This document shows positions 1-44,983 of a stretch of DNA of 64,000 bases, piece by piece (within the stretch, counting starts at the first letter, position 1; every line of letters begins with the position of its first letter). The translations under genes and the position numbers were made by a program. Under the pieces are notes generated by a model that searched no databases, was not told the DNA's origin, and was given only the letters and a program-made list of their open reading frames with translations. The stretch is taken from NCBI RefSeq assembly GCF_000372725.1, contig NW_005201551.1:280520-344519 (forward strand), read 5' to 3'. The DNA comes from Emiliania huxleyi CCMP1516 (lineage: Eukaryota).

Positions 1-309
1 AGCGTCCGAGTCGACACCGGCCTGCGCCGAATAGATGATGAAGCACACCCGGAGATTAGACCCGCAATTTAACGGCACGGCACCTGGCGGCGGCGTGTTC
101 AAATCGCGGGGCTCGCCCTCGCTCTCAATGAGTAGCTCATTTCTCTCTAGTCAACCCCTTACGCACTCTTCACACAGGAGCACTCACAGCAGAAGGCTCA
201 CGGGGCCGACTACAGTGTACAGCGGGGAGGAGTGCTCTCTAGTTAATGATCTCTGGCCACGCGAGTGTGAATTCGTAGTCAACGATCTCTCGCCACGCTC
301 GCCGTCAAA

Positions 310-392
310 GGTAGGTAGGCAGGTAGGTGTTACCTGACACTGTCTAGGCAGAGGCAGGGAGGGACCCCCGCACACACGAACCCACACATACA
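310..392 (-). mobile_element. 5'-truncated non-LTR retroelement 3' end with (CCTA)n tail
   Basis: 13-bp direct repeat GCTCGCCGTCAAA at 297-309 and 393-405. Reverse complement ends GGTAACACCTACCTGCCTACCTACC and is homologous to 48300-48431. Confidence 0.75.
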
Positions 393-455
393 GCTCGCCG
401 TCAAAACTATGCATGCTGCATGCACTCAACTTCACATCCAGTCAACGCTCTCCCC

Positions 456-3400
456 AGGCCTCGCCACGCTCGCCCTCGCCCTCTCCATCGCGTGCGCGGG
501 CCTCCTCCACTTCTTCGGCCGCGCGATGCGACGGCGGCGCGGCCCTCGCTCTTCCGAGGCGCGGAGGCGGCGCAAGGCAAAAGCCTTGCTAGGAGATTGC
601 ACGAGATTGCACGAGATTGCACGAGATTGCATGATACAAAAGCCTTGCTTGGCGGCGACGGAGCCACCGTGCGTGGTTCTTTGCTAATGAGCTAGAGGTT
701 TGAGTGGCTCCTTAGGCTACTCGTCTGGTGGCGAAGGCGCGCCGCTGCGGCAGCAGTGACCCTCTGTGTGAACGGCGCCTCTTCACACCGCCAGCTGTGA
801 GCAGGTGTGTACCGCGTGCTGGCGGCGTCCTAATGAATCATTCCGTACTCTCATCATCGAGTAACAATTAATTAGGCGCACCGCGTGTTGGCGGCGGGCG
901 ACGCGGCTGCTGCTCCCCCGGCGGTGCCAGAGTGGCAGAGCGGTGTGGTTGCTATTGGCGCGTTGGCCGCGGGCGGCGGCGCCCCCCCCACTCTCGTCGG
1001 CACCGGGTTTGTGGTCTACCTTCCGCCGGCCGAGGAGGAGGTGGTTGCACGAGATTGCACGAGATTGCACCAGTCTGCGGCGAGATCGCACAAGATTGGA
1101 GCGAGATTGCACGGGATACGACGCGGGTAGTTTCTTCTTTTAGGCTGCGCGGACAGTCCCGGCGATGTGCAGTGGCGAGGGCGGCGGGGAGGGCGGCGGG
1201 GAGGGCGGCGCAGAGGGCGGCGGAAAAGGCGGCGGAAAAGGCGGCGGAAAGGGCGGCGGAAAGGGCGGCGTGGAGGCGGCGGGTTCGGTGGTGGTGGTGG
1301 CGGCGCATGCGGCTGAGGCTCCTGCGGTTGACGAGAGATGCGTGGAGGTGACCTGAGAGATTGCCCGAGATGATCCGAGGTTCTCCGAGATGATCCGAGA
1401 TTGCACGAGATGCTCCGAGATTCACAGGCAGGGTCGGGACGTGCAATCTCGTGCAATCTCGTGCAATCTCGTGCAATCTCGTGCAATCTCCTAGGCGGAC
1501 GCCATATGGGGAGATCTGGGGGAGGTATGGGGAGGTACGGGGAGATACGGGGAGATACGGGGAGATATTGGGAGATACGGGGAGGTATGGGGAGGTATGT
1601 GTGTCCTCTAGGCGGGCGCCGTGATCTCTACTTGCGCGCATGTGCTTGACGACATCCGGCAGCACGCCGCACACGCGCCGGCCGGCGCCGCCGCAGCGTC
1701 ACCGAGGCGAAGCACGCTTCTCGACCCATATGACCACGGCGAGCCTTACCCGAACCCGAACCCGAACCCGAACCCGAACCCTACCCCTACCCCTAACCCC
1801 AACCCTAACCCTAACCCCAACCCTACCCCTACCCCTACCCCCTAGTCCTATGCTTCTCGGCCCGTATGAACACGGCGTGGCGGTCCCACCGTCCACCCAC
1901 CGCCGACGACTCGGCTCGTACTCATCTGTCTCTGGCGCATCGATCACTCACCGCTCACGACTCGGCTCGTACTCATCTGTCTCTGGCGCATCGATCACTC
2001 ACCGCTCACGACTCGGCTCGTACTCATCTGTCTCTGGCGCATCGATCACTCACCGCTCACGACTCGGCTCGTACTCATCTGTCTCTGGCGCATCGATCAC
2101 TCACCGCTCACGACTCGGCTCGTACTCATCTGTCTCTGGCGCATCGATCAGGCGTGGCGATCCCGCATATCTCCCCATATCTCCCCATATCTCCCCCTAG
2201 GCGTGGCGATCGGCCTCGGTTCGCCCGCTGGGTGGCGGCTACAGGGGAGGAGAAAAAGAAATCGAGCTGGAGAGTTGTTTGTTTAGGTTCGCCCGTCGAG
2301 TGGCGCTGCAGAGGCGATGAGAAAAAAGAAACACCCGTACAGGATTTCTTTTTTAGGTTCGCCCGTTGAGTGGCGCTACGTGGCGGTGGTTCGGCGCGTG
2401 TCCCCCCCTCCTGCGCCGCGGGACGAGAGGAACGGGCTGGATTTGGTGCTGCTCGAAGTGGCGTTCCGACTCCCGCCCCCCTCCTCCTCCTCCACCTCCT
2501 CCTCCTCCACCTCCTCCTCGTCCACCGCCTCCTCCTCCTCCTCCTCGCCCGCCTCCTACGCCGCTTGGCGATCCCTCTACCCTCCTCCCCCTCCGCCGCC
2601 GCCGCCAAAGCGCTGCGGCAGATCGATCGATCTCGAGGCCTGTTGCGCGTCGCCGGCCCGCAGCAGCGGCAGCGAGGTGTCGGAGGCCGCGCTCCTTTCG
2701 CCGCGCCGCCTCGCCGCCCTTCCTCTGGGGAACGAGCTGCGGCTTCGGCTCGGAGACGACCTGGTGCGAACGAGATTGCGCGAGATTGGAATCTGAAGCT
2801 CCTCATCGAGTTAGTTAACGGACTGCCTTAATGCACTTGCCTTCGTGAGGTCCTTCTCGGCTACTCCAAGACCAGCCGCGCCCAGCGCCCCTCCGCAACA
2901 AACACGCGCGGCGTCTTTGCGGGCCGGCTCGACGACGAGCGCACAGGCGCCAGGCCGCGCACCGCTTCTGAGGAAGAAGAAGTGATAACCATATCTAACG
3001 CCGCGTCCTTTTTCTCAGGCGGGCCACTTCTGATGAGCGCTTTAGAAGAATAAGCTTCACCCCTCACGCCCTGATTCATCAGGCGCCTGGCTGCGCACGG
3101 ACGCGCTGATGCTCAGCGGCCACTCCGGCGGACCCCTCCTCAACTGCTTGGGCGAGGTGGTGGGGGGAGTCATCTGCAGTTAATTACTATCAGGCGGCCC
3201 TCTCCTCAACTGCTTGGGCGAGGTTGTGGGGTGGTCGGTGCGCTCTAACTTTGACCCGGTGGTCGCGGGTGCCGGCTACTACGCCGCCGGCCTGAACGAG
3301 GTTCGGCTCTGGCATGCCTCCGGGTTGCGCCCGAAGAAACAGAACTCACCTTTCTACTCCGGTCAATTTCTGTTTTAGGTGCGGCCGGTCTCGGGGCTGC

Positions 3401-4442
3401 GCGCAGAGCTGCTCGCGCTGCTTGGGCCGGAGGCGCCTAAAATCTCGGCTGATCTCGGCCAGTCTCTCGCTCCACTCGGCGCGTCTATCAGCTGCTGCTC
3501 GGCTAATCTCGACGACCCCGCCCCCTCCCCCCCCTCCCCCCCAAAAGGCTTTGGCGGCGGGCTGCAGCCGCTTGCCTGATGCTCGTTCGCTAACCGGCGC
3601 CGCAGCCGCCAGCAAGGCGAGATCGCACGAGATCGCACGAGATCGCACGAGATCGCACGAGATCACACGCGAGTGCACGAGATTGCACGAGATCGCACGA
3701 GATTGCACGAGGTGGCCCGACGCAGCCGAGACCATGCGATCGAGATTGGGCCTGGCTGCGACGATCGCCGCCCTCGAGACGGCGCTGTGGTGTGAACGGC
3801 GCCTCTTCACACCTCAGCTATGAATCAGGCGATGGCAGCGCTGGAGGCGGCGCTGGCCCTGCAGAGCGGGGGACCCCGCCCCCACCCCCCCTCCCCCTCC
3901 TCCCTCTCCTCCTCCTCGTCCTCCTCCTCCTCTTCCGAGGCGGACGAGGAGGACCCCGGCACGCCTCCGCACCACTCCCGCCGCCCCCGCCACTACCCGA
4001 CCACCGCCGCCGCCGCCGCCGCCGCCGCATCTCTCGGTGTCGTTGGCGGCGGCGGCGGCGCGGGCAGCGCAAAGAGCCTCCGCCCCCTCCGCCTCCCCCG
4101 CCGCCTCCCCCACCGCCTCCACGCCGCCTCCTCCTCCGCCGCCGCCTCTACCTCCGCCGCTTCCGCCACCGCCTCCTCCTCCGCCTCCCCCGCCTCCTCC
4201 GCCCCGCCATCAACGATCCGCTCCCCCCTCCGCCTCCTCTCCTCCCGCTCCCAGCACACTCCCCGCCCTCCTCCGCCGCCTCCTCCTCCTCCTCCTCCGC
4301 CTCCGCCTCCGCCGCCGCCGCCGCATCACCCTCCCCTTCCGCGTCCGCCGCCGCCGCCGCCGCCGCCGCCTCGCTTTGCCCTCCCCGCGGCCATCGCCCC
4401 AGCGGCAGCCGATGCGTCGGTGCCGCCAGGACGGAACAATAA
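456..4442 (+). CDS. Multi-exon trypsin-like (Trypsin_2/S1) serine protease with N-terminal hydrophobic segment; ends uncertain, may start upstream
   Basis: Exons give GVVAIG..VGTGFVV (~940-1020), CAHV (His, ~1640), GLDLVLL (Asp, ~2435), LPLG..LRLGDDL, VLLGY, and LRTDALMLSGHSGGPLLNCLGEVVG (Ser motif, 3085-3230). Confidence 0.8.
1748..1845 (+). repeat. Intronic telomere-like (CCCGAA)/(CCCTAA)/(CCCCTA) run
   Basis: Hexamer run ending in TAG; similar runs at 62711-62745 and 63031-63050. Confidence 0.85.
1907..2150 (+). repeat. 51-bp tandem repeat, about 5 units, intronic
   Basis: Unit CGACTCGGCTCGTACTCATCTGTCTCTGGCGCATCGATCACTCACCGCTCA; last unit ends at a CAG acceptor. Confidence 0.9.
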
Positions 4443-5201
4443 CCGTCCAAGTACTTCGCAGTTAGTTCATCAGCGCTCGTTGTTAATTAGGCGGGGCGGC
4501 GCAGCGGCCGGCTGTCTCGGGTTGCTCTGCTTGCGCGCGGCGCCGAGGCGTCCCACTTTGGAGGAGGGTCGGCAGACGAAGGGGAGGAGGAGAAGGAGGA
4601 GGAGGAGGAGACGGAAGGGCAGGGCACCTACCTGATCTGATCGCGGGCGACAGGTGAAGCGCTCGTAGAGCGACGCTGTCTGCTGTCCCATGCTATCCAG
4701 GGCTTATCGATGGCAAGGGAGAGCGAGAGCGAGAGGGCGGGCCGGGCGACCGCGCTCGCAATTCGTGTCGCATCGCGTGGCGGCACGCGTATGTTTATTT
4801 TGCGACAACTTTCTTGGTAAAGAGAGCTGTGTCGTGCACAGTCCCTGCTGTTCCCGCCCTGTCGCAACCCGTCGGTACCCCATCCACTCTCTACATCCTG
4901 AGGGGCGACCGCCACACTGGGGCGTGTTTCTTACGCTCGAGTCTCGACTCACGAACCGCCCTCCCCCGCGGCCTCGGCGCCTCGATGAAGGGGGCGCTAG
5001 CCTCCTTGGACTGCGTGTCCGACAGAACCCCCCACCCCCCCAAGCCCCATCCCCCATCCCGCCAAACCCGCGCGCGCCCCCACCGTCGCCTCTCGCTGTA
5101 CGTCATGCTTCGCAGCCGCAAGGGCTGTTGCTCTCTGTCATACTCGTGCGGCCATCCCGCCGGGCCCCGCGCCCTCGCCGCCCGGCCGGGGCTGGAGAGG
5201 C

Positions 5202-6625
5202 TCATTCGAGGTAGATACCGCGCTCCTCGCACACGGCCACCAGCTCAGGCTGCTTCTTGTTGTCCACCCAGAGCGTCTGCACGCGAGGGGATGTGCGATG
5301 AGCATTGGGTGGGGGAGGGGCGTGTGGCGAGGGGTGGCGTCTCGCGCCTTCAAGCTCGGGGCGGCCCCCTCCTTGAGGGCGGCGGCCAGCGCCTTGCAGC
5401 CCTCGTCGCCAAGCTTGTTTTCGCCGAGAGTGAGCTCCTCGAGCCGCGGCGCTGCCCCCTCCTTGCCGAGGGCGGCGGCAAGCGCCTTGCAGCCCTCGTC
5501 GCCAATCTGGTTGTCGTAGAGGTAGAGCTTCTCGAGCCGCGGCGCTGCCCCGCTCGCGAGGACCTCCGCCAGCTGCGCCGCCTCCGCGTCGCCCCAGCCG
5601 AGGTTGGCGTAGCTCAGCTTGGTCGCCTTGCCAAACTGCTCCTCGAAGGCGGCCTCGTACAGCTGCTTCACAAGCGGCTTGTCGTCCTTGCCGTTGGTGA
5701 AGCTCTTCGACTCCAGCTCCGCCGCGAACGCAGACGGCAGCAGCGGAGGGCGCCGGCCGCCGTCCTTTCTGCAGTCGTCGACGAGGCGGCCGCAGTCGTA
5801 CTCCGTGCCGGCGCGCATCTTGCCGAGGTCGAGCGAGAGGAAGCCAGCCTTTGTCAGGCCCGCCCAGCTCTGCTCGGTGAAGCACCAGCCACGGTCAAAG
5901 TACTTGGCCACGTTGGTGCCCTCGGCCTGCTCCTCCGCCTTGTGGCCGTCCGGGAAGGAGGTCAGCCGCAGCACGAAAGTGTACTTGTGGGAGTAGAGCG
6001 TGCCGAGGCAGCCCAGCCCCTGCTTGAAGAGCGCGTTCTGCTCCTCGGTGCGCAGGACGCCGTTGGCGGGGTCGGGGTGCTGGTGCAGCGAGCCGAAGTC
6101 CCAAAACACGCCGAGCCGCGGGATGAGGGGTTTGCCGAGCGAGGGATGGTCGCTGAGCAGGGCCTTGAGCGCCCTTGCGACGCGGGAGAGGTTGGCTCCG
6201 CGCGGGTCGGGGTGGTCCTTGGTCAGCCACGGGTAGGAGAGCGCGGCGACGGGAAGGCTGCCATACTCGGTGGTCGCCTCGACGAGGTCGGCGAGGGAGA
6301 GGAAGGCCTCTTTGGGCAGCGCCTGGCGGTGGGCGAGGACGCCGCCCGCCTCGGCGTGGCGGATGATCCACTGCGCGTCGAGGAGGGCGGCGGCGCCGCT
6401 CGTGAGGACCGGCTCTAGGTCGCCGCCGCCCCACTTGCGCCACCCCTCCAGCATCGTCTCGCTCACGCCGAGATCGGTGGCAGAGGCCAGGGCGGTGGCC
6501 GGCTCCGCTTCGGCATTGGCTGGGATGGGTCCCTCTGCCCGCTCTTCCTGGAGTCCGCTGCTGATGGTACTAGCAAGACCGGCAAGGTCGTCGTATTCCT
6601 GCGGCCTGCTCGCATGGCAGCCCAT
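5202..6625 (-). CDS. HET/TIR-like domain + RI-type LRR protein, copy 1 (about 450 aa, N-terminal MGC)
   Basis: Exon 6625-5348, GC-AG intron 5347-5277, exon 5276-5202. Motifs ALSYPW, VFWDFGSLHQ, LGTLYSH, YFDRGWCFTE; LRRs such as LEKLYLYDNQIGDEGCKALAAAL. Confidence 0.85.
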
Positions 6626-7555: not shown

Positions 7556-10500
7556 CACACGCACGCGCGCGCGCACGCACTCACGCACGCACGCGCGCGC
7601 GCACGCACTCACTCACTCACTCTCACGCTGCGCACGACTGGCTCGGGAGCCGGCACGAGGCACGCGGTGTGACGGGCCGCATCGCTGGGTCCCGGACTGC
7701 TGCACACAATAGTTCCGCTCACAAGGGAGATGTTGGGAGATGCGGGGAGATGTTGGGAGATGTGGGGAGATATGGGCCCCGGACGATGGCACACACAAGA
7801 GCTCACAAGGGAGATGTGGGGAGATGTGGGGAGATGTGGGGAGACATGGGTCCCTGACTGCTGGACACAATCGCTCACAAGGGGCAGCTCGCGAGGTGGA
7901 TGGACGGCGCTATAGCCAGGGCGCTACACAGAGGGCGAAGCTCGCGCGGGCGCCGCAGTCTTGCCTCGAGCCCCCCCCCTCCCCCCCCCCTTTTGGCCCC
8001 TGCAGGTACGTGGAGCTCGACCCGGAGCGCGTGTTTGAAGGCGGCCGCCTGATATGGGGAGATCTGGGGAGATCTGGGGAGATGGAGCTCGGCGGCCTCC
8101 GACCCCGCCACCTATTAGTCGTTAATTCTGAAGGTGGTCATTAGCTGATAAGCCACCTCCGCCGCCCCCTCCCTCTCCAGCCTTCAGCCCGCCCCTGCGC
8201 CGCCGCCGCCCATCCCTCCGCCGCCGCCGCCCGCCCCTCCGCCGCCGCCTCTCTCTCGCCGCCTCCTGCCTCCCCACCACTCCCCTCCCGCATCTAGAGA
8301 GTGCTGCGCAGCGCCGAGGTCTCATTCACTTCTGCCCGCTCGCGAGGTCTCGAACACACTTCTCTAGCACGTATATGACGCGCCTCAGCATGAGTTCTTT
8401 CTTTCGTTTGATCAACCGCTTGGACGGTGCCATGACTAGAGCCGATCGAGCTGACGAGTGTTTGGGGAGATGATGGGGAGATATGGGGAGATATGGGCGC
8501 AGCTGCGACCGAATGACGAGCGCTATCGACGGAGAGTTGGGCGCCATCAGTTCAGGCGCGGGTTCAACTACTTCCACCACGCAAATNNNNNNNNNNNNNN
8601 NNNNNNNNNNNNNNNNNNNNNNNNNNNNNNNNNNNNNNNNNNNNNNNNNNNNNNNNNNNNNNNNNNNNNNNNNNNNNNNNNNNNNNATATGGGGAGATGT
8701 GGGGAGATATGGGGAGATCCAGCTGACGAGCGTTTGGTTGGAGTCAGGCGGGCGGCACTTCATCTGGCTGCGCCACTCCTTCATCAAGTTCCCGCGCCGG
8801 CACGTCAAACTCGAGATCTCCCCCATATCTCCCCATGTCTCCCCATATCTCCCCATATCTCCCGCACCGGCACGTCAAACTCGAGATCTGCTCTCCGGCC
8901 TGATAAAAACAGGGGAGTGAGATTGTCGTCGCCCCGATGATTCTCAGGCTCGCCAACCTCGAGTTCACTGTGTCAACGCGGAATTAATTTTAATTAGCTT
9001 AGCTCGTGAATCTCAGGCTCGTCAACCTCGAGTTCACTGTGTCAACGCGTAATTAGTTTTAATTCGTTTAGCTCGTGAATCTCAGGCTCGTCAACCTCGA
9101 GTTCACTGTGTCAACGCGTAATTAATTTTAATTAGTTTAGCTCGTGAATCTCAGGCTCGTCAACCTCGAGTTCTCCTTTTTTAACGACGAGCCGATGAGT
9201 AAACTATTGAATTCACGGGCCTCAGGCTCGTCAACCTCGAGTTCTCCGATTTTGGGCGCGGCGAGTCGGACCAGGCCGCCGCCGCCGCCCTCGCCTCCGC
9301 CTCCCTCGCCACCGCCCCCTTCCCCGCCTCCGCCCTCGCCTCCGCCTCCTTCGCCTCCTCCTCCCTCGCCTCCTCCTCCCTCGCCGCCTCCGCCTTCGCC
9401 TCCTCCCTCGCCGCCGCCCCAGCCAGCCTTTCAACTCGTACAGACCAGGCGGGAGGCTCTCATCGCCCTGTTACCATTCTTACTTACTCTCGTGAGGCTG
9501 TGAAAGCACGCCCAACCTAGCGCACTTGCACCCGAAGGCAAGTGCGTCTGTTCACAGCTCACGAGAGTAATGCTTACTAGGCTCCCATCTCGGCGCGCAC
9601 CGGCCCCGACCCCGACGACAAGGAGTCGGGCGGCCAGCCGATCCGGCGCTCGAGACTAGCCGAGATCCGCCGAGATCCGCCGAGGGTAGCCGAGGGTAGC
9701 CGAGGGTAGCCGAGGGTCGCCGAGAGGTTCGTCGAGATTTGTCGAGATTGGGCGGCTGCCAGTTCGCGCAAGCTCAAAACGACAGCCAGCTCATACTTAC
9801 CCTGCCCACTCTTCTCTTTGCACCCAATGCCACGGAGGGGCCGCCAGCTTGCTGACAAGGGAGATGCGGGGAGATGTGGGGAGATATGGGGAGATATGGG
9901 CCCCGGACGATGGCACACACAAGAGCTCACCAGGGAGATGTGGGGAGATAGGGGAGATATAGATCCCGGACTGCTGGACACAATAGCTCACGAGGTTAGC
10001 TGATTCTCACCCAGGCTCTGCGTCGCCTTCCAGTACCAGATTGCGAGGCGCGACGTGCCTCGGATCTACCAGACGTTTGGCGCGCCGCACGCGGCTGTCG
10101 CACGAGGCTGCCCCGCTGTGAACGGCGTTTCTTCACGGGTGGACGGTGCCGAAACAGGCGCGTTGCATGAGGCTTCGTACCTGCGCTTCGCCCAGCAGGC
10201 CGTTGCGCCGAGCAGCTTGCGGGCGCGCCTCTGAGCGTGCATCGAGAGCGGGCAGTTTTTTCTGTGTTTCAGGCCATCACAAACGAGGCGCAGATGTTCA
10301 CTCCGCGCGCGTTTTGGACGGACCGCAAGAAGGTGGAGGGGCAGCTGCTGGGCAAGGTGGCATGTCGCCGAGACGCCGCCAGAGATGCCGCCGAGAGCGG
10401 GAGGAGGGCAGCCGTGCGCATCGGAGTGGGCGAGGAGACGCCGCCGAGCCGGCGGCTCGGCAGCTTCCTTTTCTGCAGCCAAGTGGAGCCGTCGTCTCGG

Positions 10501-29575: not shown

Positions 29576-30663
29576 TCGCCAATCTTGTTGTTGCCGTTGA
29601 GATAGAGCACCTCGAGCCGCGGCGCTGCCCCGCTCGCGAGGACCTCCGCCAGCTGCGCCGCCTCCGCGTCGCCCCAGCCGAGGCCGGTGTAGTCCAGCTC
29701 GGTCGCCTTGCCAAACTGCTCCTCGAAGGCGGCCTCGTACAGCCCCTTCACCAGCGGCTTGTCGTCCTTGCCGTTGGTGAAGCTCTTCTTCTCCAGCTCC
29801 GCCGCGAACGCAGACGGCAGCAGCGGAGGGCTCCGGCCGCCGGCCTGGGTGCAGTCCTCGATGAGGCTGCCGCAGTCGTACTCCACGCCGTCGCGCGTCT
29901 TGCCGAGGTCGAGCGAGAGGTAGGCGGCCTTTGTCAGGCCAGCCCAGCTCTGCTCCGTGTAGCACCAGCCGCGGTCAAAGTACGCGGCCACGTTGGTGCC
30001 CTCGGTCTGATCCTCCGCCTTGTGGCCGTCCGGGAAGGAGGTCAGCCGCAGCACCCAAGTGTGCTGGTGGGAGTAGAGCGTGCCGAGGCAGCCCAGCCCC
30101 TCCTTGAAGAGCGCGTTCTGCTCCTCGGTGCGCATGACGCCGTTGGCGGGATCGGGGTGCTGGTGCAGCGAGCCGAAGTCCCAAAAGACGCCGAGCCGCG
30201 TGATGGAGCTGAGCAGGGCCTTGAGCGCCCTCGCGACGCGGGAGAGGTTGGCTCCGCGCGGGTCGGGGTGGTCCTTGGTCAGCCACGGGTAGGAAAGCGC
30301 TCCGACGGGAAGCCAGTCATACTCGGTCGCCTCGACGAGGTCGGCGAGGGAGAGGAAGGCCTCTTTGGGCAGCGCCTGACGGTGGGAGAGGACGCCGCCC
30401 GCCTCGGCGTGGCTGATGATCCACTGCGCGTCGAGGAGGGCGACGGCGCCGCTCGCGAGGACCGGCTCGAGGTCGCCGCCGCCGAGCTTGCGCCACAGTT
30501 CCAGCTTCTCCTCATCGACGCCGAGATCGGTGGCGGAGGGGAGGGCGGCGGCCGGCTGCGTCGGCGCGGCGGTGTCGGCGGGCGTCGGGGCGTCGAGTTC
30601 GACGGCGGGAGGGCCGGGCAGCTCCTCGGTCGGGGCCTCGACGCGGCTGGAGACGCAGCCCAT
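29576..30663 (-). CDS. HET/TIR-like + LRR protein, copy 2 (runs into N gap)
   Basis: ATG 30663 MGCVSS; same motifs as copy 1; appears identical to copy 3. Confidence 0.8.
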
Positions 30664-31390
30664 CGTGAGAAGTCGATCGACTTTGACAAGGACACAGGTG
30701 GAAAAGAATTCAACGCGGCACGCGACAGTACCAAAAGAGGAACACTCGATCGCGTCGCCTACACGAAGGCGTCGAGGGGGGGACAGTTTATTTCTTTTTT
30801 TGAGCTTAGCCTTCGATGTTAGGAAACAAAGCAAGGCGGGACATGGCATATCGCTCTCGGGCTCACAGACATCCCTCACACCCGCCGCCCCCGCGCGCGC
30901 CCCACCCCGGCCGGGAGAGAGGGGAGTGACAGTTTGGGACGGCGACAGCCCGAGTATGTTGAGTCCTGGCTCAACAACGCAGGGTTCAAGAGGGGGTGGT
31001 CCGGCTCACAAGTCCGGCTCACGCGCCTCGAGCTGACCATCTACCGCACTGAGCACTTCCGCCCCCTCGCTCCCAACCCATCCACCCCGCCCCGGGCCGC
31101 GCCGCGCGATCTCGGGCGATCTCGGGCGATCTCGGGCGATCTCGGGGCCGCGCCGCGCTATCTCGGGTGATCTCGGAGCGTCGCTCGCGCGGCGTCACAC
31201 CTGCTCAAAAAGGAAGGAGGTTGGAGGCAGGAGGTCACGCCCCATCCAGAGCGCCGTCGTCGCCGGGTTTTTGGCCCCCGGGTCGTCGCCTGACGGTTGC
31301 TGCGCGGGGCAGCAGACCATCGGACGGCGCGACGACGCCCCGTCCGGCACGCTCCCCCCTCCACCCGGCTATTGCCGCACGAGTGCCCTA

Positions 31391-33748: not shown

Positions 33749-35040
33749 TCAGCAGAGGTTGATGCCGCGCTCCTTGCACACGGCCACCAGCTCAGGCTGC
33801 TCCGTGTTGTCCACGTAGAGCTTCTGCACGCGAGGGGAGGAGCGATGAGCATTGGGCGGGGGAGGGGCGTGTGGCGAGGGGGAGCGTCTTGCGCCTTCAA
33901 GCTCGGGGTGCCCCCCTCCTTGAGGGCGGCGGCCAGCGCCTTGCAGCCCTCGTCGCCAATCTTGTTGTTGCCGTTGAGATAGAGCACCTCGAGCCGCGGC
34001 GCTGCCCCGCTCGCGAGGACCTCCGCCAGCTGCGCCGCCTCCGCGTCGCCCCAGCCGAGGCCGGTGTAGTCCAGCTCGGTCGCCTTGCCAAACTGCTCCT
34101 CGAAGGCGGCCTCGTACAGCCCCTTCACCAGCGGCTTGTCGTCCTTGCCGTTGGTGAAGCTCTTCTTCTCCAGCTCCGCCGCGAACGCAGACGGCAGCAG
34201 CGGAGGGCTCCGGCCGCCGGCCTGGGTGCAGTCCTCGATGAGGCTGCCGCAGTCGTACTCCACGCCGTCGCGCGTCTTGCCGAGGTCGAGCGAGAGGTAG
34301 GCGGCCTTTGTCAGGCCAGCCCAGCTCTGCTCCGTGTAGCACCAGCCGCGGTCAAAGTACGCGGCCACGTTGGTGCCCTCGGTCTGATCCTCCGCCTTGT
34401 GGCCGTCCGGGAAGGAGGTCAGCCGCAGCACCCAAGTGTGCTGGTGGGAGTAGAGCGTGCCGAGGCAGCCCAGCCCCTCCTTGAAGAGCGCGTTCTGCTC
34501 CTCGGTGCGCATGACGCCGTTGGCGGGATCGGGGTGCTGGTGCAGCGAGCCGAAGTCCCAAAAGACGCCGAGCCGCGTGATGGAGCTGAGCAGGGCCTTG
34601 AGCGCCCTCGCGACGCGGGAGAGGTTGGCTCCGCGCGGGTCGGGGTGGTCCTTGGTCAGCCACGGGTAGGAAAGCGCTCCGACGGGAAGCCAGTCATACT
34701 CGGTCGCCTCGACGAGGTCGGCGAGGGAGAGGAAGGCCTCTTTGGGCAGCGCCTGACGGTGGGAGAGGACGCCGCCCGCCTCGGCGTGGCTGATGATCCA
34801 CTGCGCGTCGAGGAGGGCGACGGCGCCGCTCGCGAGGACCGGCTCGAGGTCGCCGCCGCCGAGCTTGCGCCACAGTTCCAGCTTCTCCTCATCGACGCCG
34901 AGATCGGTGGCGGAGGGGAGGGCGGCGGCCGGCTGCGTCGGCGCGGCGGTGTCGGCGGGCGTCGGGGCGTCGAGTTCGACGGCGGGAGGGCCGGGCAGCT
35001 CCTCGGTCGGGGCCTCGACGCGGCTGGAGACGCAGCCCAT
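33749..35040 (-). CDS. HET/TIR-like + LRR protein, copy 3 (about 406 aa)
   Basis: Exon 35040-33895, GC-AG intron 33894-33824, exon 33823-33749 (KLYVDNTEQPELVAVCKERGINLC*). Confidence 0.85.
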
Positions 35041-35727
35041 CGTGAGAAGTCGATCGACTTTGACAAGGACACAGGTGGAAAAGAATTCAACGCGGCACGC
35101 GACAGTACCAAAAGAGGAACACTCGATCGCGTCGCCTACACGAAGGCGTCGAGGGGGGGACAGTTTATTTCTTTTTTTGAGCTTAGCCTTCGATGTTAGG
35201 AAACAAAGCAAGGCGGGACATGGCATATCGCTCTCGGGCTCACAGACATCCCTCACACCCGCCGCCCCCGCGCGCGCCCCACCCCGGCCGGGAGAGAGGG
35301 GAGTGACAGTTTGGGACGGCGACAGCCCGAGTATGTTGAGTCCTGGCTCAACAACGCAGGGTTCAAGAGGGGGTGGTCCGGCTCACAAGTCCGGCTCACG
35401 CGCCTCGAGCTGACCATCTTGCCCGCTCCCGCCCGCTACACGCGGTCCAATATTACCTGAGATTACCCGAGATTACCCGAGATTGCCCGAGATTACTCGA
35501 TATCGCCCGAGATCGCGAGTAGTGTTTGTTTGTGTTTGTGTGCGCGCGTGTGTGCGTGTGTGTTTGCGTGTGTGTGTGTGTGTGTGTAAGTGCCCACACT
35601 CCCCGACTACACGAGGTCCAATATTACCTGAGATCACCCGAGATTACCCAAGATAACCCGAGGTACAGATCACCCGAGATCTCCCAAGATTACCCGAGAT
35701 TACCCGAGGTTACTATCAGTGCGTGTG

Positions 35728-35931: not shown

Positions 35932-38900
35932 ATGCTGCTCTCCTGTTTGGCGCTGTCGCCGTCCGACGCCTCGCCGACGCCGGCAGGCCGCGGTGAGCCA
36001 TCAACCACGCCTCCGCGCGCCGCGCTGCCGCTGCTGCTTCCAGAAGCCGCCTCCACCAAATTGGTGCCAAAGTCCCGCCGTAGTAGCCGCGGGCGATGTT
36101 TGCAACACTGGACGTAGAGCGGCACGGCGGCGATGACCCGGGCGCTTCAGAGGGCCTCTGGCCACCGTACACACACACATTCACAAGCAAGTACACACAG
36201 GCACCGCGCCTCAGCCGCGTCGGTACATGCAGGCGCTGCAGCCCGAGGCGCTGGACTACGTCGCTGGCCTGCGCGGGCCGGTGGCGGTGGTGGCAGCGAT
36301 CGGCCAGTACCGGAGCGGCAAGTCGTTTCTGCTCAACCAGCTGATGCGGCTCAACTGCAGCGAGGGCTTCCAGGACACTTTCATAGACATGTCACAACAA
36401 CCGCGGCTCCAGGACACTTAAAAACATAGACAGCTCACAAAGCACCGCGGCTCGAGGCCACTCTCGTAGACAGTTCACACTCCAGTCACACACACGTGCG
36501 GGACCGGTCACGCGCACATGTACATGTGAGGCGCCTCCGGTGCACGCCTCCATTGCCCAATGCATCCCTCATCCGTCTCTTCACACGCCGGTGGCCGCGA
36601 GCAGGTCGGGCACCGGCGGGATTACCCGAGATTACCCGAGATTACCCGAGATTACCCGAGATTACCCGAGCAGGTCGGGCACCGGCGGGACGCGCAGACC
36701 AAAGGAGTGTGGCTGTACGGGCAGCGCGCCGAGGCGTTCGGAGGCCCCGGAGGCGCCACGGTCCTCTTTCTTTAATTGTTTAACGAGTCGCACTTGACTA
36801 ACCACAGGGGAATTGAGTACAGGCGCCACGGTTCTCTTTCTCGACTCCGAGGGGTTCGAGGGGACGGGGAAGGCGGCTGCGTACGACGACCGCATCTTTG
36901 CGTTTGCGGCGCTGTCCGCTGCGGCTCGGGTAATCTCGGGCAATCTCGGGTAATCTCGGGTAATCTCGAGCAGGTGCTGTCCGCGGCGGCGGTGCTCATT
37001 CTAGGAACCTTCTAGGAACCTTCAGGAGCCTTCTAGGGTACTTCTAGGTGCTGTCCGCGGCGGCGGTGCTCTACAATCTGGTGGAGGGCCGTCCGAGAGG
37101 CGGCGCTTTCAATGATAACCAATGAATGAGTTCGTTTTCATTGTATGAAAGGTGGAGACTACTCGAGAGGGGCGGCGCCCTTTTAGTTCACTCTCAAGTA
37201 ACGAATCGCCTTTCCTTAAATGAAAGGTGGAGACCATCCGAGAGGCGGACATCGCGAAGCTGGCCTTCGCTGTTAATTAATAATTAGTTAAAGGCTCTGA
37301 TAATTAATTACAGGCGGACATCGCGAAGCTGGCCTTCGCCGCGCAGCTGGCGTCGGAGTTCTGGCGCCGCACTAGCGGCGAGGCGGGCGGAGGAGGCGGG
37401 GGAGAGGGCGAGGGCGGCGGCGGCGAGGGGAGCGACAGTGGCGATGGCGGCGGCGGCGAGGAAGGCGGAGGGAAGGGTCGCGGCACGGCGCGGCGGCGGT
37501 GGGCTCCTCCTGCAATGCTCTGGCGTGTGCAGCGCCGACGTCTTTAAGTCATTAACGAATCGTGATGAATTAATTGGAGGGAATTGAGTCCAGGCGTGTG
37601 CGACGTCTTTAATTAGTTAAACCAATCGTCCCTATCTAATCAGAGGTGGTTAGTCACAGGCTTGTGCAGCGCGACTTCTTGCAAGGAGGGTCGGTGGAGG
37701 AGTATCTGCGGCAGGCGCTTAGTTATTACTAAGGGTAATGAATTAAGGGTCATGAATTAAGGGGAATTAATTAAGGTCGGTCGAGGAGTCCTTGCGGCAG
37801 GCGGCTCAATGAACTAATTACTACCCCTCCATTAAGGGTACTTAATTGAGGTGGAGGAGTCCTTGCGGCAGGCGCTGCAGCCGGTCTAGCCGCCTAGAAG
37901 CAGACATACGTATTCTTACACTCCAACAAGCGCTCGAGAGACGTACTCAGCCGTATGATTCGGCCGTGTTCACTGTAGTCGCCCCCCTCGTATTCAAACG
38001 GTGCTCTGAAGACGCTGCACAGTACCGCCTTCCCGCCCCCGAGGTTGTTGGCGGATTCGTGACTTGTAGGTCGAGCACGCTCCGACGGACGCGCAGGCGG
38101 GGCAGCCGAGAGTACCCGAGAGGACCCGAGAGGACCCGAGAGGACCCGAGAGGACCCGAGAGGACCCGAGAGGACCCGAGATTACCCGAGAGTACCCGAG
38201 AGGAGCCGAGAGTACCCGAGAGTACCCGAGAGTACCCGGGATTGTCCGAGACGCCCAGGCGAGGCAGCTCTGACTCGGTGTTAGCTAGCTGTGAACTCGT
38301 TGTGAACTCGTTGTGAATTCGTTGTGAACTCGTTGTCAACTCGTTGTCAACTCGTTGTCAACTCGACGCGCAGGCGGGGCAGCTCAACGCCATCCGCCGC
38401 ACACTGCGCTCCTTCGGCGGCATGCGCGGCCTCGGCTTACCGCAGCCCCACCCTTCCCGAACGTCCCTCTGCGACCTCCCGCCCGATCAGCTAGCGGCAG
38501 AGTACCGGGCGGGCATGCAGGCTGTGCGGGAGTGGGTCGGTTCTGTTGCGCAACGGCGGAGGAGGCGGGCGCCGGCGGCGGAGGCGGAGGCGGAGGCGGA
38601 GGCGGAGGCGGAGGAGGCGGAGGAGGCGGAGGCGGCGGAGCGGCCAGTTGCGTCACGCGTTGGGACGACTGCAGCAGACGCGATGGCGATGGCAAATGGG
38701 AATGGGAGGGTGTGGGGCAGTGGCAAGGAGCTGGCGGGGGCGGTGCGGAAGCTGGTGGAGGCGCTCAACGCCAACGCCATCCCGACGGCCGGCTCCGTCA
38801 TCGACTCTTTCAACAACGAGGCGATCCCGTTGATTAATTATTGATTACAGAGGCAGTGATGAAATGATCAACAGATTGACTCGTTCAACAACGAGGCGAC

Positions 38901-39648
38901 CCCGTTGATGAATTATTGGTTACAGAGGGCAGTTATGAAATGATCAACAGATTGACTCGTTCAACAACGAGGCGATCCCGTTGATGAATTATTGATTACA
39001 GAGGCAGTTATGAAATGATCAACAGATTGACTCGTTCAACAACGGGGCGATCCCGTTGATGAATTATTGATTACAGAGGCAGTTATGAAATGATCAACAG
39101 ATTGATCTCCTTCATTGTCAAGACGAGTTGTGAAGAGTCGATGGCTGATTAACTACTCACTGACGCCTTCCACAACGAGGCACTCGTTGTTAAGATTCGA
39201 CGACGCACTAACTCACCCCTACTGGCGCCGTCCACAACCAGGCCCGCGCGACGGCGCTGGCGACGCTGCGGGCGGATGCCGAGAAGAGCGTTCCGCTGCA
39301 GCCCGACGAATTGTGGTCGTTCACGCCGCCGGTCGTTCACACACAGGCGGATGCGGAGGCGCTCCCGCTGCCGATGGTCGAGGCTCGGCTCGCCTCCTCC
39401 CTCGCCGCCTCCGTCGCCGCCGCCGAGCGGGCGCTGCGCCGGCGCGTGTTTGGCGGGGGGGCGGGGGGGGGGGGGGGGCCCCTGAAATTAATGAATATTA
39501 ACTCCTACCCCTTTTAATTCATAGGCCCCTGTTTGGCGGGGGGGCGGGGGGGCGGCTGGCGGCGGCAAACATGGCGGCGGTCCCTAAAGCGGCCGGCGAG
39601 AGGTAGCCGAGATGGCGTCGAGATATAGCGGGGATTGAGGAGGGGAGG

Positions 39649-39764: not shown

Positions 39765-42147
39765 CAGAGAGACAGAGAGACAGAGAGACAGAGAGACAGA
39801 GAGACAAACAGTTATTGAAACGTATTCAGGCGACGCCAACTTCCGCGCGTCACACGCCCAGTGCCGCCTGCTCTGGTCTCGCTGCGCCGCCTCCCTCGCC
39901 GCCCTCCGCGCCGTGTTGCTGCCCTCCCGCCGCCGCTTCCACGCGCGCGTCGAGCGCTGCAACGACACATTGAGGTTTATTATTATCATTGCTACTGTTG
40001 TTGTTGTTGTTGTTATTACTATTATGATTAGTGGCATCACTATTTCTTATCATCGCTGTTTATTGGTATTCATGAGCATCGCTACTTACTATTGCCATTA
40101 CTCTACTGTGATTGTGATCCTCACTGTTGTTGTTATATTGTTACCATTCTGATTGTTGTCATTCCTACTTTAGCGGCTGCGTTGGGCCGGCGGCGGCGGA
40201 GTATCACGAGAGGCTGGCGCTGGAGGCGGGGAAGGGCGAGGAGGAGTTCAATGCGCGCTTCCACGGCCAGCTGTCCCACGCCCTCTTCCTGTTGTGCGTT
40301 GGCGGCATCCTCACCTTCTGCGACGTGGTCGTGAGCGCACTGATGAATCTTAACTAATAATTAATGAGTATTAATTCATAGGCATCCTCACCTTCTGCGA
40401 CGTGGTCGTGAGCGCACTGATGAATCTGAACTAATAAGTAATGAGTATTAATTCATAGGCATCCTCACCTTCCGCTACGTGGCCGTGAGCGCCTTAATGA
40501 ATCTTGATTAATATCAATTAGTATTCATGCATAGGCATCCTCACCTTCCGCTACGTGGCCGTGAGCGCATTAAATAATCTGAAGATTGATCTTAATAATT
40601 CAATTCATAGGCATCCTCACCTTCCGCTACGTGGCCGTGAGCGCCTTAATGAATCTTGATTAATATCAATTAGTATTCATTCATAGGCATCCTCACCTTC
40701 CGCTACGTGGCCGTGAGCGCATTACACAATCTGAAGATTGATCTTAATAATTCAATTCATAGGCATCCTCACCTTCCGCTACGTGGCCGTGAGCGCCCTC
40801 GCCGAGGTGGGCTGCCGGCTGCTGCTGCCTTAAGAGCTGGGGCCGCGTCCTGTGACCGCGTGATCCGGTGTGATCTGGTGTGACCACAGGTCGGCTGCTG
40901 GCTGCTGTTAATTAATAGCAATCAAGATGAACTAATCTCGGCCGATCTCGCGGAGGTGGGCTGCTGGCTGCTGCTGGCGTCGGTGGAGCTGCTGCCCAGG
41001 CTGGCCAAGCTTTAAATAAATAAATAAAAACGGACACCTCTCTACTGTGAGATGGGTAAAAAGGAACAGGTCCCCGCCCTTGCGATCTTTGTGCAGGGTT
41101 CTTTGTTGGCCAAGCCAAGTTTTGCTTCTCAGATAGATTGGCATCCATAATCACTATGATACGAGTTAATGAGCTCAAGCTGCGTCTTCGCAGGCTGGCT
41201 GCGCTCGCCCAGTTCTCGCCCGTCGCCGCAGCTACTGCGTCGGTCTGGGAGATATGGGGAGATATGGGGAGATACGGGGAGATAGTGTCCCCCCATCCCC
41301 AGGGCCTTCAGGGCTCACACCTCACCCTCTCACAGACCAGCTCGCAGCGCCATAGGACGTATTTCCTTCTCAACAACAAGGCGTGTGAATAGGTCTGGGA
41401 GACGGCGGCGGGGAAGGTGGCTGTCGATTGGTACGAAGGCGATTAATTAATTGGGCGATGAATTCAGATTTATCAATTAAAGGCGGCTGTCGAGTGGTAC
41501 GAGGCGATTAAATCAGTGAATTGGGCGATGAATTCATATGTGTCAGTTAAAGGCGGCTGTCGAGTGGTACGAAGGCGATTAATTAATTGGGCGAGTAATT
41601 CAGATTTATCAATTAAAGGCGGCTGTCGAGTGGTACGAGGCGATTAAATCAGTGAATTGGGCGAGTAATTCAGATTTCTCAGTTAAAGGCGGCTGTCGAG
41701 TGGTACGAGGCGGTGGTGTTCAATCCGGTGGCGGATTTGGACAACCTGCTGCTGCCGCTGGCCGCCGGCCTCCTCGCCGTCTGCACTGCGCGATACTGCC
41801 GCCGCTGCGCGCGCGCCACGCGCCGCTGGCGAGGGCGATCAGCTGGCGAGATGCAGCCGAGATGCAGCCGAGATGCAGCCGAGATGCAGCCGAGATGCAG
41901 CCGAGATGCGGGCGAGATGCGGCCGAGATGCAGCCGAGATGCAGCCGAGATGCGGCCGAGATGCAGCCGAGATACACCCGTTGCAGCCGATGTACGCCCG
42001 CCCGAGAACGCCCGAGATGATCCGAGATCACCCGAGATTTCCGAGCTCAGGCAGCTACCGGCACGTCGGCGGCGGCGACGACGACGACGACGAGGAGGAG
42101 GAGGACGATCTCTCGGGGTCGAGGCACGTCTCCGGTCGCTGGCCTGA
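35932..42147 (+). CDS. Guanylate-binding protein/atlastin-family GTPase with C-terminal TM segments
   Basis: PVAVVAAIGQYRSGKSFLLNQL (G1), QTKGVW (G2), FLDSEGF (G3), DDRIFAFAAL, LWLVQRDF, LPQP; hydrophobic segments at ~40280, 40770 and 41750. Confidence 0.9.
37884..38069 (+). mobile_element. Introner-like intron, copy A (GBP gene)
   Basis: GCCTAGAAGC..AGCGCTCGAG..CGGTGCTCTGAAGAC.CTGC..CCCGCCCC..TAG; starts GTCTAGC, next exon starts GTCGAGC. Confidence 0.8.
38803..39110 (+). repeat. About 75-bp tandem array, 4 copies, intronic
   Basis: GACTCGTTCAACAACGAGGCGATCCCGTTG plus AT-rich spacer. Confidence 0.9.
40304..40797 (+). repeat. Acceptor + exon-start array, 7 copies, 76-77 bp period
   Basis: GGCATCCTCACCTTC..ACGTGG.CGTGAGCGC at 40304, 40381, 40458, 40534, 40610, 40686 and 40762; spacers end CATAG. 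Confidence 0.92.
41414..41712 (+). repeat. Acceptor + exon-start array, 5 copies, 66/70 bp alternating period
   Basis: AAGGCGGCTGTCGAGTGGTACGA repeated with AT-rich spacers. Confidence 0.9.
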
Positions 42148-43106: not shown

Positions 43107-43895
43107 TCAGCAGAGGTCGATGCCGCGCTCCTCGCACACGGCCACCAGCTCAGGCTGCTTCTTGTTCGGGTAGCCCACCTCGAGCTTCTGCACGCGACGG
43201 GAGGCGCGATGAGCATTGGGCGGGGGAGGGGCGTGTGGCGAGGGGGGGAGGCGTCTCGCGCCTTCAAGCTCGGGGCGGCCCCCTCCTTGAGGGCGGCGGC
43301 CAGCGCCTTGCAGCCCTCGTCGCCAATCTTGTTGCCGCCGAGATAGAGCGTCTCGAGCCGCGGCGCTGCCCCGCTCGCGAGGACCTCCGCCAGCTGCGCC
43401 GCCTCCGCGTCGCCCCAGCCGAGCATGCCGTAGCCCAGCACGGTCGCCTTGCCAAACTGCTCCTTGAAGGCGGCCTCGTACAGCCGCTTCACCAGCGGCT
43501 TGTCGTCCTTGCCGTTGGTGAAGCTCTTCGTCTCAAGCTCCGCCGCGAACGCAGACGGCAGCAGCGGAGGGCGCCGGCCGCCGTCCTGGATGCAGTCGGT
43601 GATGAGGTTGACGAAGTCGTACTCCACGCCGGCGCGCATCTTGCCGAGGTCGAGCGAGAGGGTCCAGGCCTTTGTCAGGCCAGCCCAGCTCTGCTCGGTG
43701 TAGCACCAGCCGCGGTCAAAGTACTTGGCCACGTTGGTGCCTTCGGCCTGGTTCTCCGCCTTGTGGCCGTCCGGGAAGGAGGTCAGCCGCAGCACCCAAG
43801 TGTGCGGGTGGGAGTAGAGCGTGCCGAGGCAGCCCAGCCCCTGCTTGAAGAGCGCGTTCTGCTCCTCGGTGCGCAGGACGCCGTTGGCGGGGTCG
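43107..43895 (-). pseudogene. HET/TIR-like + LRR protein, copy 4, 5'-truncated
   Basis: Homology begins at DPANGVLRTEEQ; upstream is replaced by repeat sequence (43896-43930, matches 53688-53720); same terminal GC-AG intron. Confidence 0.8.
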
Positions 43896-44983
43896 TGGCA
43901 AATCAAGACACAGAGCTCACACAGAATCACAGCGGGAGGAAAGCGGCGAGTCGCAATTCCAGGGGTCGTTGTGGCGGGCCACCCTGTCTTCTTTGCCGTG
44001 TTAGTGGCAAAGTCGCGTCGATCTTTTTCTTGACCCAGTATCGTAGTCTTTGTTAGTATCGAGGTCTCGCGAGTTTTGGGGGTTCTCGGCGCCGCGACAG
44101 CGCTGCGAGCGGCGCGATGCCACGGCGCTTGGCCTGCTGAGAGAAGAGCTTCCCGGACGGCAGTGACAAGTTACCCGACATCAATCGTCGACGGCAACCT
44201 CGAGAACTGCGCCTCCAAAGTCGCCCAGATTCGCCTCTCGCGGCGCGCTGAGTTAGTATCGCCGGTGCGCCAGCAGGCTCTGCTCCACAGCAGGGCATGC
44301 CCGACTGGCTCCTGCTAGCCGTGCGTCCTGGTGGCATCCATTGCCAGCTCAGGTAGCCTCAGGAGGTCGCCTCGCGCACGACGCGGCGTCGCACAGCACC
44401 GCTCAGCGTTACTACCGAGTTAGTATCGTCGACCCACAGAGACTGCTCTTCTGTAGGTGGAGCCGACAAACGCCGGCCGGATCGGCGCCGCCGCCCCCAT
44501 CGCCGCCGCCGGGGCGGCGGCGGCCTCGGCGGACCATCCGGCGCGCCGCGCGCCCGTCGGGGAGGTGTTCACCACCCCTGGCTCCTCACCCCGCCACGCC
44601 TTCGTGCGGACGCCGTGGCACCCACCTCAGGCGCCGCTCGGACTCGGTTGACGGCCACCCAAGTGCTTGGCTCGTGCCAAGCCGACCGGCAGGCGATTCC
44701 CAGTCACTGCTAGGCTAATCTCGGGCTGTCCTGCGTCAGTGTGGTGCCGTGAGGGGCGCCGCCCCCAAAACTACGATCGTTAGTACCGTGTAGGGGCAGT
44801 GCATTTAATTCTGTCACAAATCCAAATCTGCTCCGTGGAGCTTATTGGGCTAGGATCATACGTCCGGGAGGCCCCCCATGCGTGCCGTAACGATCGACAG
44901 CGATCTGGCTACTCTGTTCACGTTCACACCTCGAAACCCCCCATAACCCCGATACAGGAGGTAGCCGGCCCGGCACCCGCTCG

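What the first reader, a model, noticed from the sequence alone, without database searches (positions are those of the whole stretch)
5202..5630. Hypervariability concentrated in exposed LRR beta-strand positions, plus LRR copy-number change
Seen: the scaffold (LGWGDAEAAQLAEVLASGAAPRLE, GDEGCKALAAAL, QPELVAVC) is invariant. The xLxLxx strands differ: KLSYAN/ELDYTG/VLGYGM; KLYLYD, ELTLGE/VLYLNGN/TLYLGG; TLWVD/KLYVD/KLEVGYP; IYLE/INLC/IDLC. Copy 1 has one extra LRR. Other patches also vary (KAGF/KAAY/KAWT; DCGRLVDD/DCGSLIED/DFVNLITD). Known: this is the pattern of plant NLRs and lamprey VLRs under ligand-driven selection. Inference: diversifying selection or a targeted diversification process.
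Basis: partly seen in the sequence, partly recalled or inferred. Interest (0 to 1): 0.82.

Follow-up and report, generated by a model that had tools for sequence, protein, structure and literature searches.

The report
Hypervariable TIR-like LRR receptors in coccolithophore
A bloom-forming alga carries dozens of near-identical genes whose predicted binding surface changes several times faster than silent DNA and is joined directly to a likely TIR/HET-like signalling enzyme, so they likely form a varied set of internal sensors for invaders.

Summary
The gene (minus strand, 6625-5202, one GC-AG intron) belongs to an Emiliania/Gephyrocapsa family with 35 named CCMP1516 gene models among the hits. 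In 42 proteins the exposed LRR strand positions carry 8-15 amino acids; the scaffold is almost fixed, even at silent sites. My codon models give dN/dS about 5-7 at these sites (2.7-5.2 when multi-base changes are allowed), against about 0.15-0.25 elsewhere. Repeat number runs from 1 to 8. Silent sites inside the strands are not hypermutated, so positive selection plus repeat duplication and exchange explains the pattern; a targeted mutator is not supported. The N-terminal 270 residues are a remote HET/TIR-like domain (weak fold and profile matches, near-invariant RGWCxxE) joined straight to the LRRs with no NACHT/NB-ARC. Many copies begin MGCxxS, a likely lipid anchor. Loops of that domain are also hypervariable. 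It works like the fungal HNWD receptors and brown-algal LRR-ROCOs but is neither. Function, ligand and enzyme activity are inferred, not shown. Seven literature searches found no description.

The parts
5348..6625 (-). Copy 1, exon 1 (426 codons): MGC start, linker, HET/TIR-like domain, LRR1-3
   Evidence: 97% identical to P0002 (EMIHUDRAFT_114844)
5277..5347 (-). 71-nt GC-AG intron, phase 0
   Evidence: joint 5276-5348 in contigs of runs X10 and X7, absent in DNA run X2
5202..5276 (-). Copy 1, exon 2: last variable strand and capping helix (24 aa + stop)
   Evidence: spliced relatives P0021 and P0039
6608..6625 (-). MGCxxS start, likely myristoyl/palmitoyl anchor (motif meaning recalled)
   Evidence: 25 of 56 close proteins start MGC
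5636..6442 (-). HET/TIR-like alpha/beta domain (aa 62-330)
   Evidence: model pLDDT 96; fold search; profile comparison with a HET set
5873..5893 (-). RGWCxxE motif; E251 is the candidate catalytic glutamate
   Evidence: R 87/87, W 87/87, E 86/87 in alignment A2
5603..5620 (-). LRR1 hypervariable codons 336, 338, 340, 341
5507..5530 (-). LRR2 hypervariable codons 366, 368, 370, 371 (373 less variable)
5414..5437 (-). LRR3 (extra repeat) variable codons 397, 399, 401, 402, 404
6257..6271 (-). Hypervariable indel loop before domain strand 1 (aa 119-123)
6119..6154 (-). Hypervariable indel loop before domain strand 2 (aa 158-169)
5975..5983 (-). Variable codons 215/217 at the start of domain strand 3
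5840..5848 (-). Variable codons 260-262 before domain strand 4
5762..5806 (-). Variable helix patch, aa 274-288
29576..30663 (-). Copy 2, cut by an N gap; identical to copy 3, probably an assembly duplicate
33749..35040 (-). Copy 3, complete: exon 1 35040-33895, intron 33894-33824, exon 2 33823-33749; one internal repeat
43107..43898 (-). Copy 4, 5'-truncated (lacks the start and domain strands 1-2); intron 43261-43188

Best explanation
This is one member of a large haptophyte gene family whose exposed LRR strand codons are under strong diversifying selection, and whose proteins likely act as membrane-anchored intracellular non-self sensors: a variable surface would bind a pathogen molecule and likely switch on an attached HET/TIR-like glutamate-dependent enzyme, with no NACHT/NB-ARC module in between. 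Shown: the codon-precise variability, dN/dS above 1, the changing repeat number, the direct domain-to-LRR junction and splicing of family transcripts. Inferred: diversity arises in the germ line by point mutation kept by frequency-dependent selection, while tandem duplication and exchange between copies keep the scaffold uniform and remix patches; the domain cleaves an N-glycosidic bond (NAD+ or similar); the ligand comes from a virus or other parasite.
For: Entropy is 2.5-3.5 bits at the 8 x sites against a median of 0.17 over 338 sites in 42 proteins. pN at 9 x codons is 0.57, against pS 0.10 at the other 295 codons and 0.11 in the adjacent intron. M2a beats M1a by 2dlnL 110 with omega 5.6 (15 sequences). 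With double and triple changes allowed, 2dlnL is 45 and 68, and omega at x sites is 2.7 and 5.2. 67 of 76 internal repeats in 30 E. huxleyi proteins have a distinct four-residue tuple, with 1-8 repeats per protein. PHI p is 0.002 and 0.007 at two of three window sizes on 10 DNA sequences; mosaic triplets are seen. 17 of the top 21 fold matches are titled TIR/SEFIR or nucleoside deoxyribosyltransferase. The four HET motif blocks align in register; score 36 against at most 23 in 60 shuffled controls. E251 is kept in 86 of 87. The same strand pattern recurs in a distant trio, P0115/P0117/P0118. No strongly hydrophobic segment in exon 1 (max KD19 1.09).
Against: Fold Z is at most 5.2 (rmsd 3.6, 110 aligned for SpbK TIR), within the range of unrelated matches, and tied with deoxyribosyltransferases; Foldseek found nothing at E <= 0.001. 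Pfam HET/TIR were not among the listed matches of 74, 87 or 40 scanned proteins. Untrimmed hhalign probabilities are only 17-35%. PHI on 23 CCMP1516 proteins is not significant (p 0.20-0.92), although 43% of site pairs are incompatible. Metagenome loci and the copy-1 mosaic may include assembly chimeras, and recombination inflates tree-based omega. None of 6 family gene ids appears in the differential-expression table of an EhV infection study. No ligand, activity or phenotype is known.
Confidence: 0.62

Rival explanations
1. The family recognises conspecific non-self or mating partners (allorecognition, gamete fusion), as fungal het genes do, rather than pathogens.
For: The closest domain relative is HET, a fungal incompatibility cell-death domain. 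Selection alone does not name the partner.
Against: Dozens of paralogues diversify within one genome, which fits many foreign ligands better than one partner. A passage in PMC10197012 says only 5 of 125 HET genes in Podospora act in allorecognition.
Confidence: 0.13
2. The proteins are variable binders or decoys (ribonuclease-inhibitor-like traps for pathogen proteins) and the domain is a scaffold, not a signalling enzyme.
For: The LRRs are RI-type. Variable patches spread over the domain itself. Some TIRs are non-catalytic adaptors.
Against: S130, D176, Q182, R245, W247 and E251 stay near-invariant across 87 proteins of 35-87% identity, as expected of an active site.
Confidence: 0.13
3. A targeted process (templated micro-conversion, DGR-like or somatic hypermutation) rewrites the strand codons.
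For: Multi-base changes improve the fit by about 70 lnL units in the whole-gene model. Silent divergence is mildly higher within 3 codons of hot sites (0.09-0.10 against 0.05-0.06). The codon shapes NNG/NNT/NNC resemble adenine-mutated templates.
Against: The leucine codons between the variable codons are unchanged in 30 of 30 and 28 of 30 repeats, and a silent adenine in the repeat is kept in 28 of 30. Silent change at x codons is 0.043. 68 of 74 codons have a one-step neighbour. No RT among 51 window ORFs and no cassette array in the window. Copy 1's strands equal those of P0002, although the two may not be independent.
Confidence: 0.08
4. The pattern is neutral (relaxed surface sites) or an assembly artefact.
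For: Copy 2 is probably an assembly duplicate; metagenome contigs can be chimeric.
Against: Non-synonymous change exceeds silent and intron change about five-fold before correction. The pattern holds in the CCMP1516 models alone and in a distant lineage.
Confidence: 0.04

Closest known systems
Fungal HNWD/NWD NLRs (Podospora HET-D, HET-E, HET-R) with highly conserved repeats
   Same: N-terminal HET domain; near-identical repeats with about four positively selected interface positions per repeat; repeat-number change and exchange within and between genes (passages of PMC4986451).
   Different: No NACHT; LRRs instead of WD40 (that paper found no LRRs in fungal NLRs); a domain below the Pfam HET threshold; variable loops on the effector domain; likely lipid anchor.
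Brown-algal LRR-ROCO candidate receptors
   Same: Algal cytosolic LRR proteins with four positively selected concave-face sites and shuffled repeats (passages of PMC11378527).
   Different: No ROC-COR GTPase; repeats are not one per exon (LRR1-3 share exon 1); 31-aa RI-type unit.
Plant TIR-NB-ARC-LRR receptors and TIR NADases
   Same: TIR-like fold with a conserved Glu near Cys (PMC9153377 passages); selection on xLxLxx positions (recalled).
   Different: No NB-ARC; the domain is about 270 aa with insertions and abuts LRR1; repeats are near-identical at DNA level.
Lamprey/hagfish VLRs (features recalled)
   Same: Fixed LRR scaffold, variable concave face rich in Y/N/D/G/S/W, variable module number.
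   Different: VLRs are extracellular and somatically assembled from cassettes; here intact germ-line paralogues with no signal or TM segment seen and no cassette array in the window.

Membership tests
HET domain (PF06985) | Match to the Pfam HET model | tested here: not met
   Not among listed matches for 74 (25 of 31 families shown), 87 (25 of 33 shown) or 40 proteins.
HET domain (PF06985) | Motif blocks SYxW, WxD, Y..V.VL and RxWxxxE in order | tested here: met
   All four align in register with a 35-sequence HET set; probability 17-35% untrimmed or global, 78% trimmed local (first three blocks); score 36 against at most 23 in 60 shuffles.
HET domain (PF06985) | Induces cell death | not testable with these tools
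   Needs expression.
TIR NADases | TIR (flavodoxin-like) fold | tested here: inconclusive
   10 of the top 21 rows are TIR/SEFIR and 7 deoxyribosyltransferases; best Z 5.2, rmsd 3.6-3.9, 110-117 aligned.
TIR NADases | Catalytic Glu in helix alphaC | tested here: inconclusive
   E251 in a helix, kept in 86 of 87; residue-level superposition was not available.
TIR NADases | NAD+ cleavage on self-association | not testable with these tools
   Needs an assay.
NLR / STAND receptors (HNWD, TNL, NLRP) | Central NACHT or NB-ARC domain | tested here: not met
   The domain ends at aa 330 and LRR1 starts at aa 335; no NACHT/NB-ARC in 40 longer relatives or 12 long hits.
High-internal-conservation repeat receptors | Near-identical repeats, number polymorphism, selected interface sites | tested here: met
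   About 1.8 scaffold differences in 18 aa both within and between genes; 1-8 units; omega above 1. The published cut-off of 85% over 100 aa was not applied.
High-internal-conservation repeat receptors | Repeat exchange within and between genes | tested here: inconclusive
   3 identical within-gene tuples and one cross-gene pair at the same position; PHI significant on DNA, not on proteins.
Brown-algal LRR-ROCO | ROC-COR domain; one LRR per exon | tested here: not met
   No such Pfam match; LRR1-3 lie in one exon.
VLR | Secreted or GPI-anchored; cassette array flanking an incomplete gene | tested here: not met
   MGC start, max hydropathy 1.09; only the four copies match in the window. The rest of the genome is not held.
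VLR | Somatic assembly | not testable with these tools
   Only contigs were available for runs holding the gene.
Diversity-generating retroelement | Adenine-specific mutagenesis | tested here: not met
   Silent A in the repeat kept in 28 of 30; flanking A-bearing codons fixed.
Diversity-generating retroelement | Nearby reverse transcriptase and template repeat | tested here: inconclusive
   None among 51 of the 314 listed window ORFs scanned; introns could hide one.

The most novel reading that the evidence does not exclude
A single-celled alga runs an antibody-like repertoire: one-piece TIR-like/LRR sensors without a NOD module, whose binding strands are rewritten by codon-scale templated exchange within clonal lineages, and whose allele set decides which Emiliania huxleyi viruses a strain resists.
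Probability: 0.08. Interest if true: 0.95.

Novelty: new variant of a known kind. Interest (0 to 1): 0.72.

Why it matters
How Emiliania/Gephyrocapsa huxleyi recognises the viruses that end its blooms is open. A 2025 study states that TIR-based antiviral systems had not been described in microalgae, and it defined TIR genes by Pfam profiles that this domain did not match here. This family offers dozens of candidate sensors with a mapped, strongly selected surface and a single candidate catalytic residue, so strain-specific resistance becomes testable by genotype association and by a simple enzyme assay. It would also show a receptor design in which sensor and TIR-like enzyme are joined without a nucleotide switch, spread over haptophytes, a dinoflagellate, a diatom and Chromera.

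Tried and rejected
No whole genome is held, so the paralogue set rests on public protein models and metagenome contigs. Foldseek on the full model returned only LRR proteins, and on the domain nothing at E <= 0.001. A domain profile against PDB sequences gave 0 hits. NCBIfam and PADLOC gave nothing for the domain. The ESM Atlas gave only unnamed haptophyte clusters at scores of 0.85 or less, leads only. No viral relative; the one prokaryotic hit, L041, is a chance match on the strand opposite a membrane-protein gene. Laying runs at 99% likeness: run X1 holds copy 1's LRR1 strand exactly in a 56-base contig, other patches had no cover, and raw-read run X15 gave no reads, so this says nothing on rare variants. 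The pairwise longest-identical-tract test is confounded by clustered variation and was not relied on. No self-association model was obtained. In the supplement of PMC12489294, four LRR_6 rows carried ids not in my hit list and six family ids were absent; only 6 of 38 ids were tried. Earlier-findings look-ups returned nothing.

Full report
Locus. The window holds four minus-strand copies of one gene. Copy 1 runs from ATG 6625 through exon 1 to 5348, a 71-nt GC-AG intron, and exon 2 at 5276-5202. The intron is skipped in contigs of runs X10 (culture RNA-seq) and X7 (RNA by guess) and not in DNA run X2; several different exon-2 starts appear at the joint, so several paralogues are spliced. These are contigs, so they do not show that copy 1 itself is expressed. 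Copy 3 is complete with one fewer repeat. Copy 2 equals copy 3 over 1467 bp from an N gap, probably an assembly duplicate. Copy 4 lacks its 5' part.

Family. A search with exon 1 gave 133 proteins; 35 of the 120 listed carry E. huxleyi CCMP1516 gene-model names and 3 more are among 12 longer hits. Some may be haplotypes of one locus. The domain alone finds 2543 representatives at 50% clustering, 1127 at E <= 1e-10. Named distant members are from Gephyrocapsa and Prorocentrum cordatum, Prymnesium parvum, Seminavis robusta and Chromera velia. No viral or credible prokaryotic relative was found.

Where the variation is. I aligned copies 1 and 3 with 40 of the 50 best hits (3 set aside as broken, 7 lost by the trimming rule). 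Codons 336, 338, 340, 341, 366, 368, 370 and 371 have 2.5-3.5 bits and 8-15 residues; the median site has 0.17 bits and 231 of 338 sites are under 0.5. In the full-length model (pLDDT 95) these flank and alternate along the LRR strands. In 30 E. huxleyi proteins, 76 internal repeats give 67 distinct four-residue tuples, with 1-8 repeats in the 29 that had any; scaffolds differ by about 1.8 of 18 residues both within and between genes. Further hot patches at aa 119-123, 158-169, 215/217 and 260-262 each lie just before one of four strands of the N-terminal domain, and 274-288 covers a helix. Many LRR chains align to the model from residues 154-200 onward, which suggests that the domain's last strands continue the LRR sheet and that these patches adjoin the LRR face. 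That is inferred from ranges; I had no coordinates.

Selection. With 3 window copies and 19 of 40 metagenome loci, pN at the 9 x codons is 0.57, while pS at the other 295 codons is 0.10. The intron differs by 0.11 in a comparable set where x-codon positions 1 and 2 differ by 0.63. My own GY94 implementation (not PAML; scaled nucleotide tree; naive Bayes) on the 15 longest sequences gave M2a over M1a 2dlnL 110, omega 5.6 at 5% of sites, with posterior above 0.99 for 338, 340, 341, 368, 370, 371, 217, 262, 279, 283 and 72. Site 72 is a two-state change that probably reflects recombination. Fixed-site omega at x codons is 4.7 (whole gene) and 6.9 (LRR block, 18 sequences), and 2.7 and 5.2 when double and triple changes are allowed, still above 1 (2dlnL 27 and 60); other sites give 0.14-0.24.

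Selection or a mutator. In 30 distinct repeat units the leucine codons between the variable codons are CTC in 30 and 28, several four-fold sites are fixed, a silent adenine is kept in 28, and the second variable codon keeps a third-position T in 24. Silent differences are 0.043 at x codons, 0.069 at conserved strand codons and 0.073 in the domain. 68 of 74 observed x codons have a one-step neighbour. This fits stepwise mutation filtered by selection, not a blanket or adenine-specific mutator. Two things point the other way and remain unexplained: allowing multi-base changes improves the fit strongly, and silent change is about 1.7-fold higher within three codons of hot sites. Short conversion tracts or linked balancing selection could cause both.

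Exchange. PHI on 10 DNA sequences gave p 0.002, 0.007 and 0.07 for three window sizes. Copy 1 matches P0002 except for one block that matches P0018; this could also be a chimeric assembly. On 23 CCMP1516 proteins PHI was not significant, but 43% of low-state site pairs were incompatible and linkage was low at all distances. Identical repeats within P0001, P0003 and P0005 show tandem duplication.

The N-terminal domain. It models at pLDDT 96. Foldseek found nothing. The wide structural search put TIR/SEFIR domains (10 rows) and nucleoside deoxyribosyltransferases (7 rows) in the top 21, best Z 5.2, which is weak but coherent. Across 87 relatives S130 (87), W133 (85), D176 (84), Q182 (84), R245 (87), W247 (87) and E251 (86) are kept. 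I collected 35 PF06985 proteins from one bacterial seed; hhalign placed the four motif blocks in register, with probability 17% and 35% untrimmed, 35% global and 78% local when trimmed, against at most 9% in 60 column shuffles. That HET set is one subfamily. Pfam HET itself was not matched. Published passages say that HET is remotely TIR-like, shares the conserved glutamate and occurs in haptophytes. There is no NACHT or NB-ARC. 25 of 56 close proteins and 24 of 223 others start MGC; that this signals myristoylation plus palmitoylation is recalled. The distant trio P0115/P0117/P0118 (two of them 29-31% identical to copy 1) repeats the whole pattern, including MGC, loop variation and repeat-number change.

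Mechanism. Shown: variability, selection, architecture, splicing. Inferred: cytosolic-face membrane anchoring; binding of a foreign molecule on the variable face; activation of the TIR-like domain by clustering or release of inhibition; a nucleotide signal or cell death. EhV is the obvious driver, but nothing here names it, and six family ids were absent from one infection study's table.

Literature. Seven full-text searches found no description of this family; the library lacks most subscription papers. I saw search passages only of PMC4986451, PMC12489294 (plus matching rows of one supplementary table), PMC11378527, PMC3834299, PMC10197012 and PMC9153377. VLR, DGR and acylation features are recalled.

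Verdict. Real, strongly selected, and a new variant of a known kind: the evolutionary regime of fungal HNWD receptors in a NOD-less HET/TIR-like-LRR architecture in phytoplankton. Interest 0.72.

Noticed in passing
window 29576-31042 and 33953-35419: 1467 bp at 100% identity starting exactly at an N gap; probably an assembly duplicate rather than a fourth gene.
   Followed up: partly
window 43898-45000: Copy 4 starts abruptly inside the domain; the upstream DNA matches nothing else held except 33 bases at 53688-53720. Possible insertion or truncation.
   Followed up: partly
window 8938-9173, 38803-39114, 40304-40796, 41414-41712, 49645-50026, 55640-56087, 57273-58019, 58625-58796: Many tandem arrays of 68-81 bp, most with an AT-rich TTAAT-like core joined to a GC-rich, coding-like part; they could be repeated exon-intron units.
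   Followed up: no
window 1744-1841: Interstitial telomere-like CCTAAC/CCGAAC hexamer array, 16 copies.
   Followed up: no
window 46199-47626 (+): Glycosyltransferase family 4 match (PF13692, PF00534, GT4-conflict) near the cluster.
   Followed up: no
proteins P0045, P0135, P0143, P0204, P0236, P0118, P0202, P0159, P0322: The same domain occurs with EF-hands, PDZ, a kinase, Sel1 or ankyrin repeats, so it is a mobile module.
   Followed up: no
CCMP1516 models such as P0002, P0004, P0005: Many public gene models read through the GC-AG intron and so have a wrong C-terminus.
   Followed up: partly
L042:1306-2754: A bacterial HET-domain protein with about 35 relatives, a few of them fungal.
   Followed up: partly
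L006 and L028: Rearranged members: L006 has two LRR blocks around a divergent intron; L028 breaks off after LRR1 into unrelated sequence.
   Followed up: no
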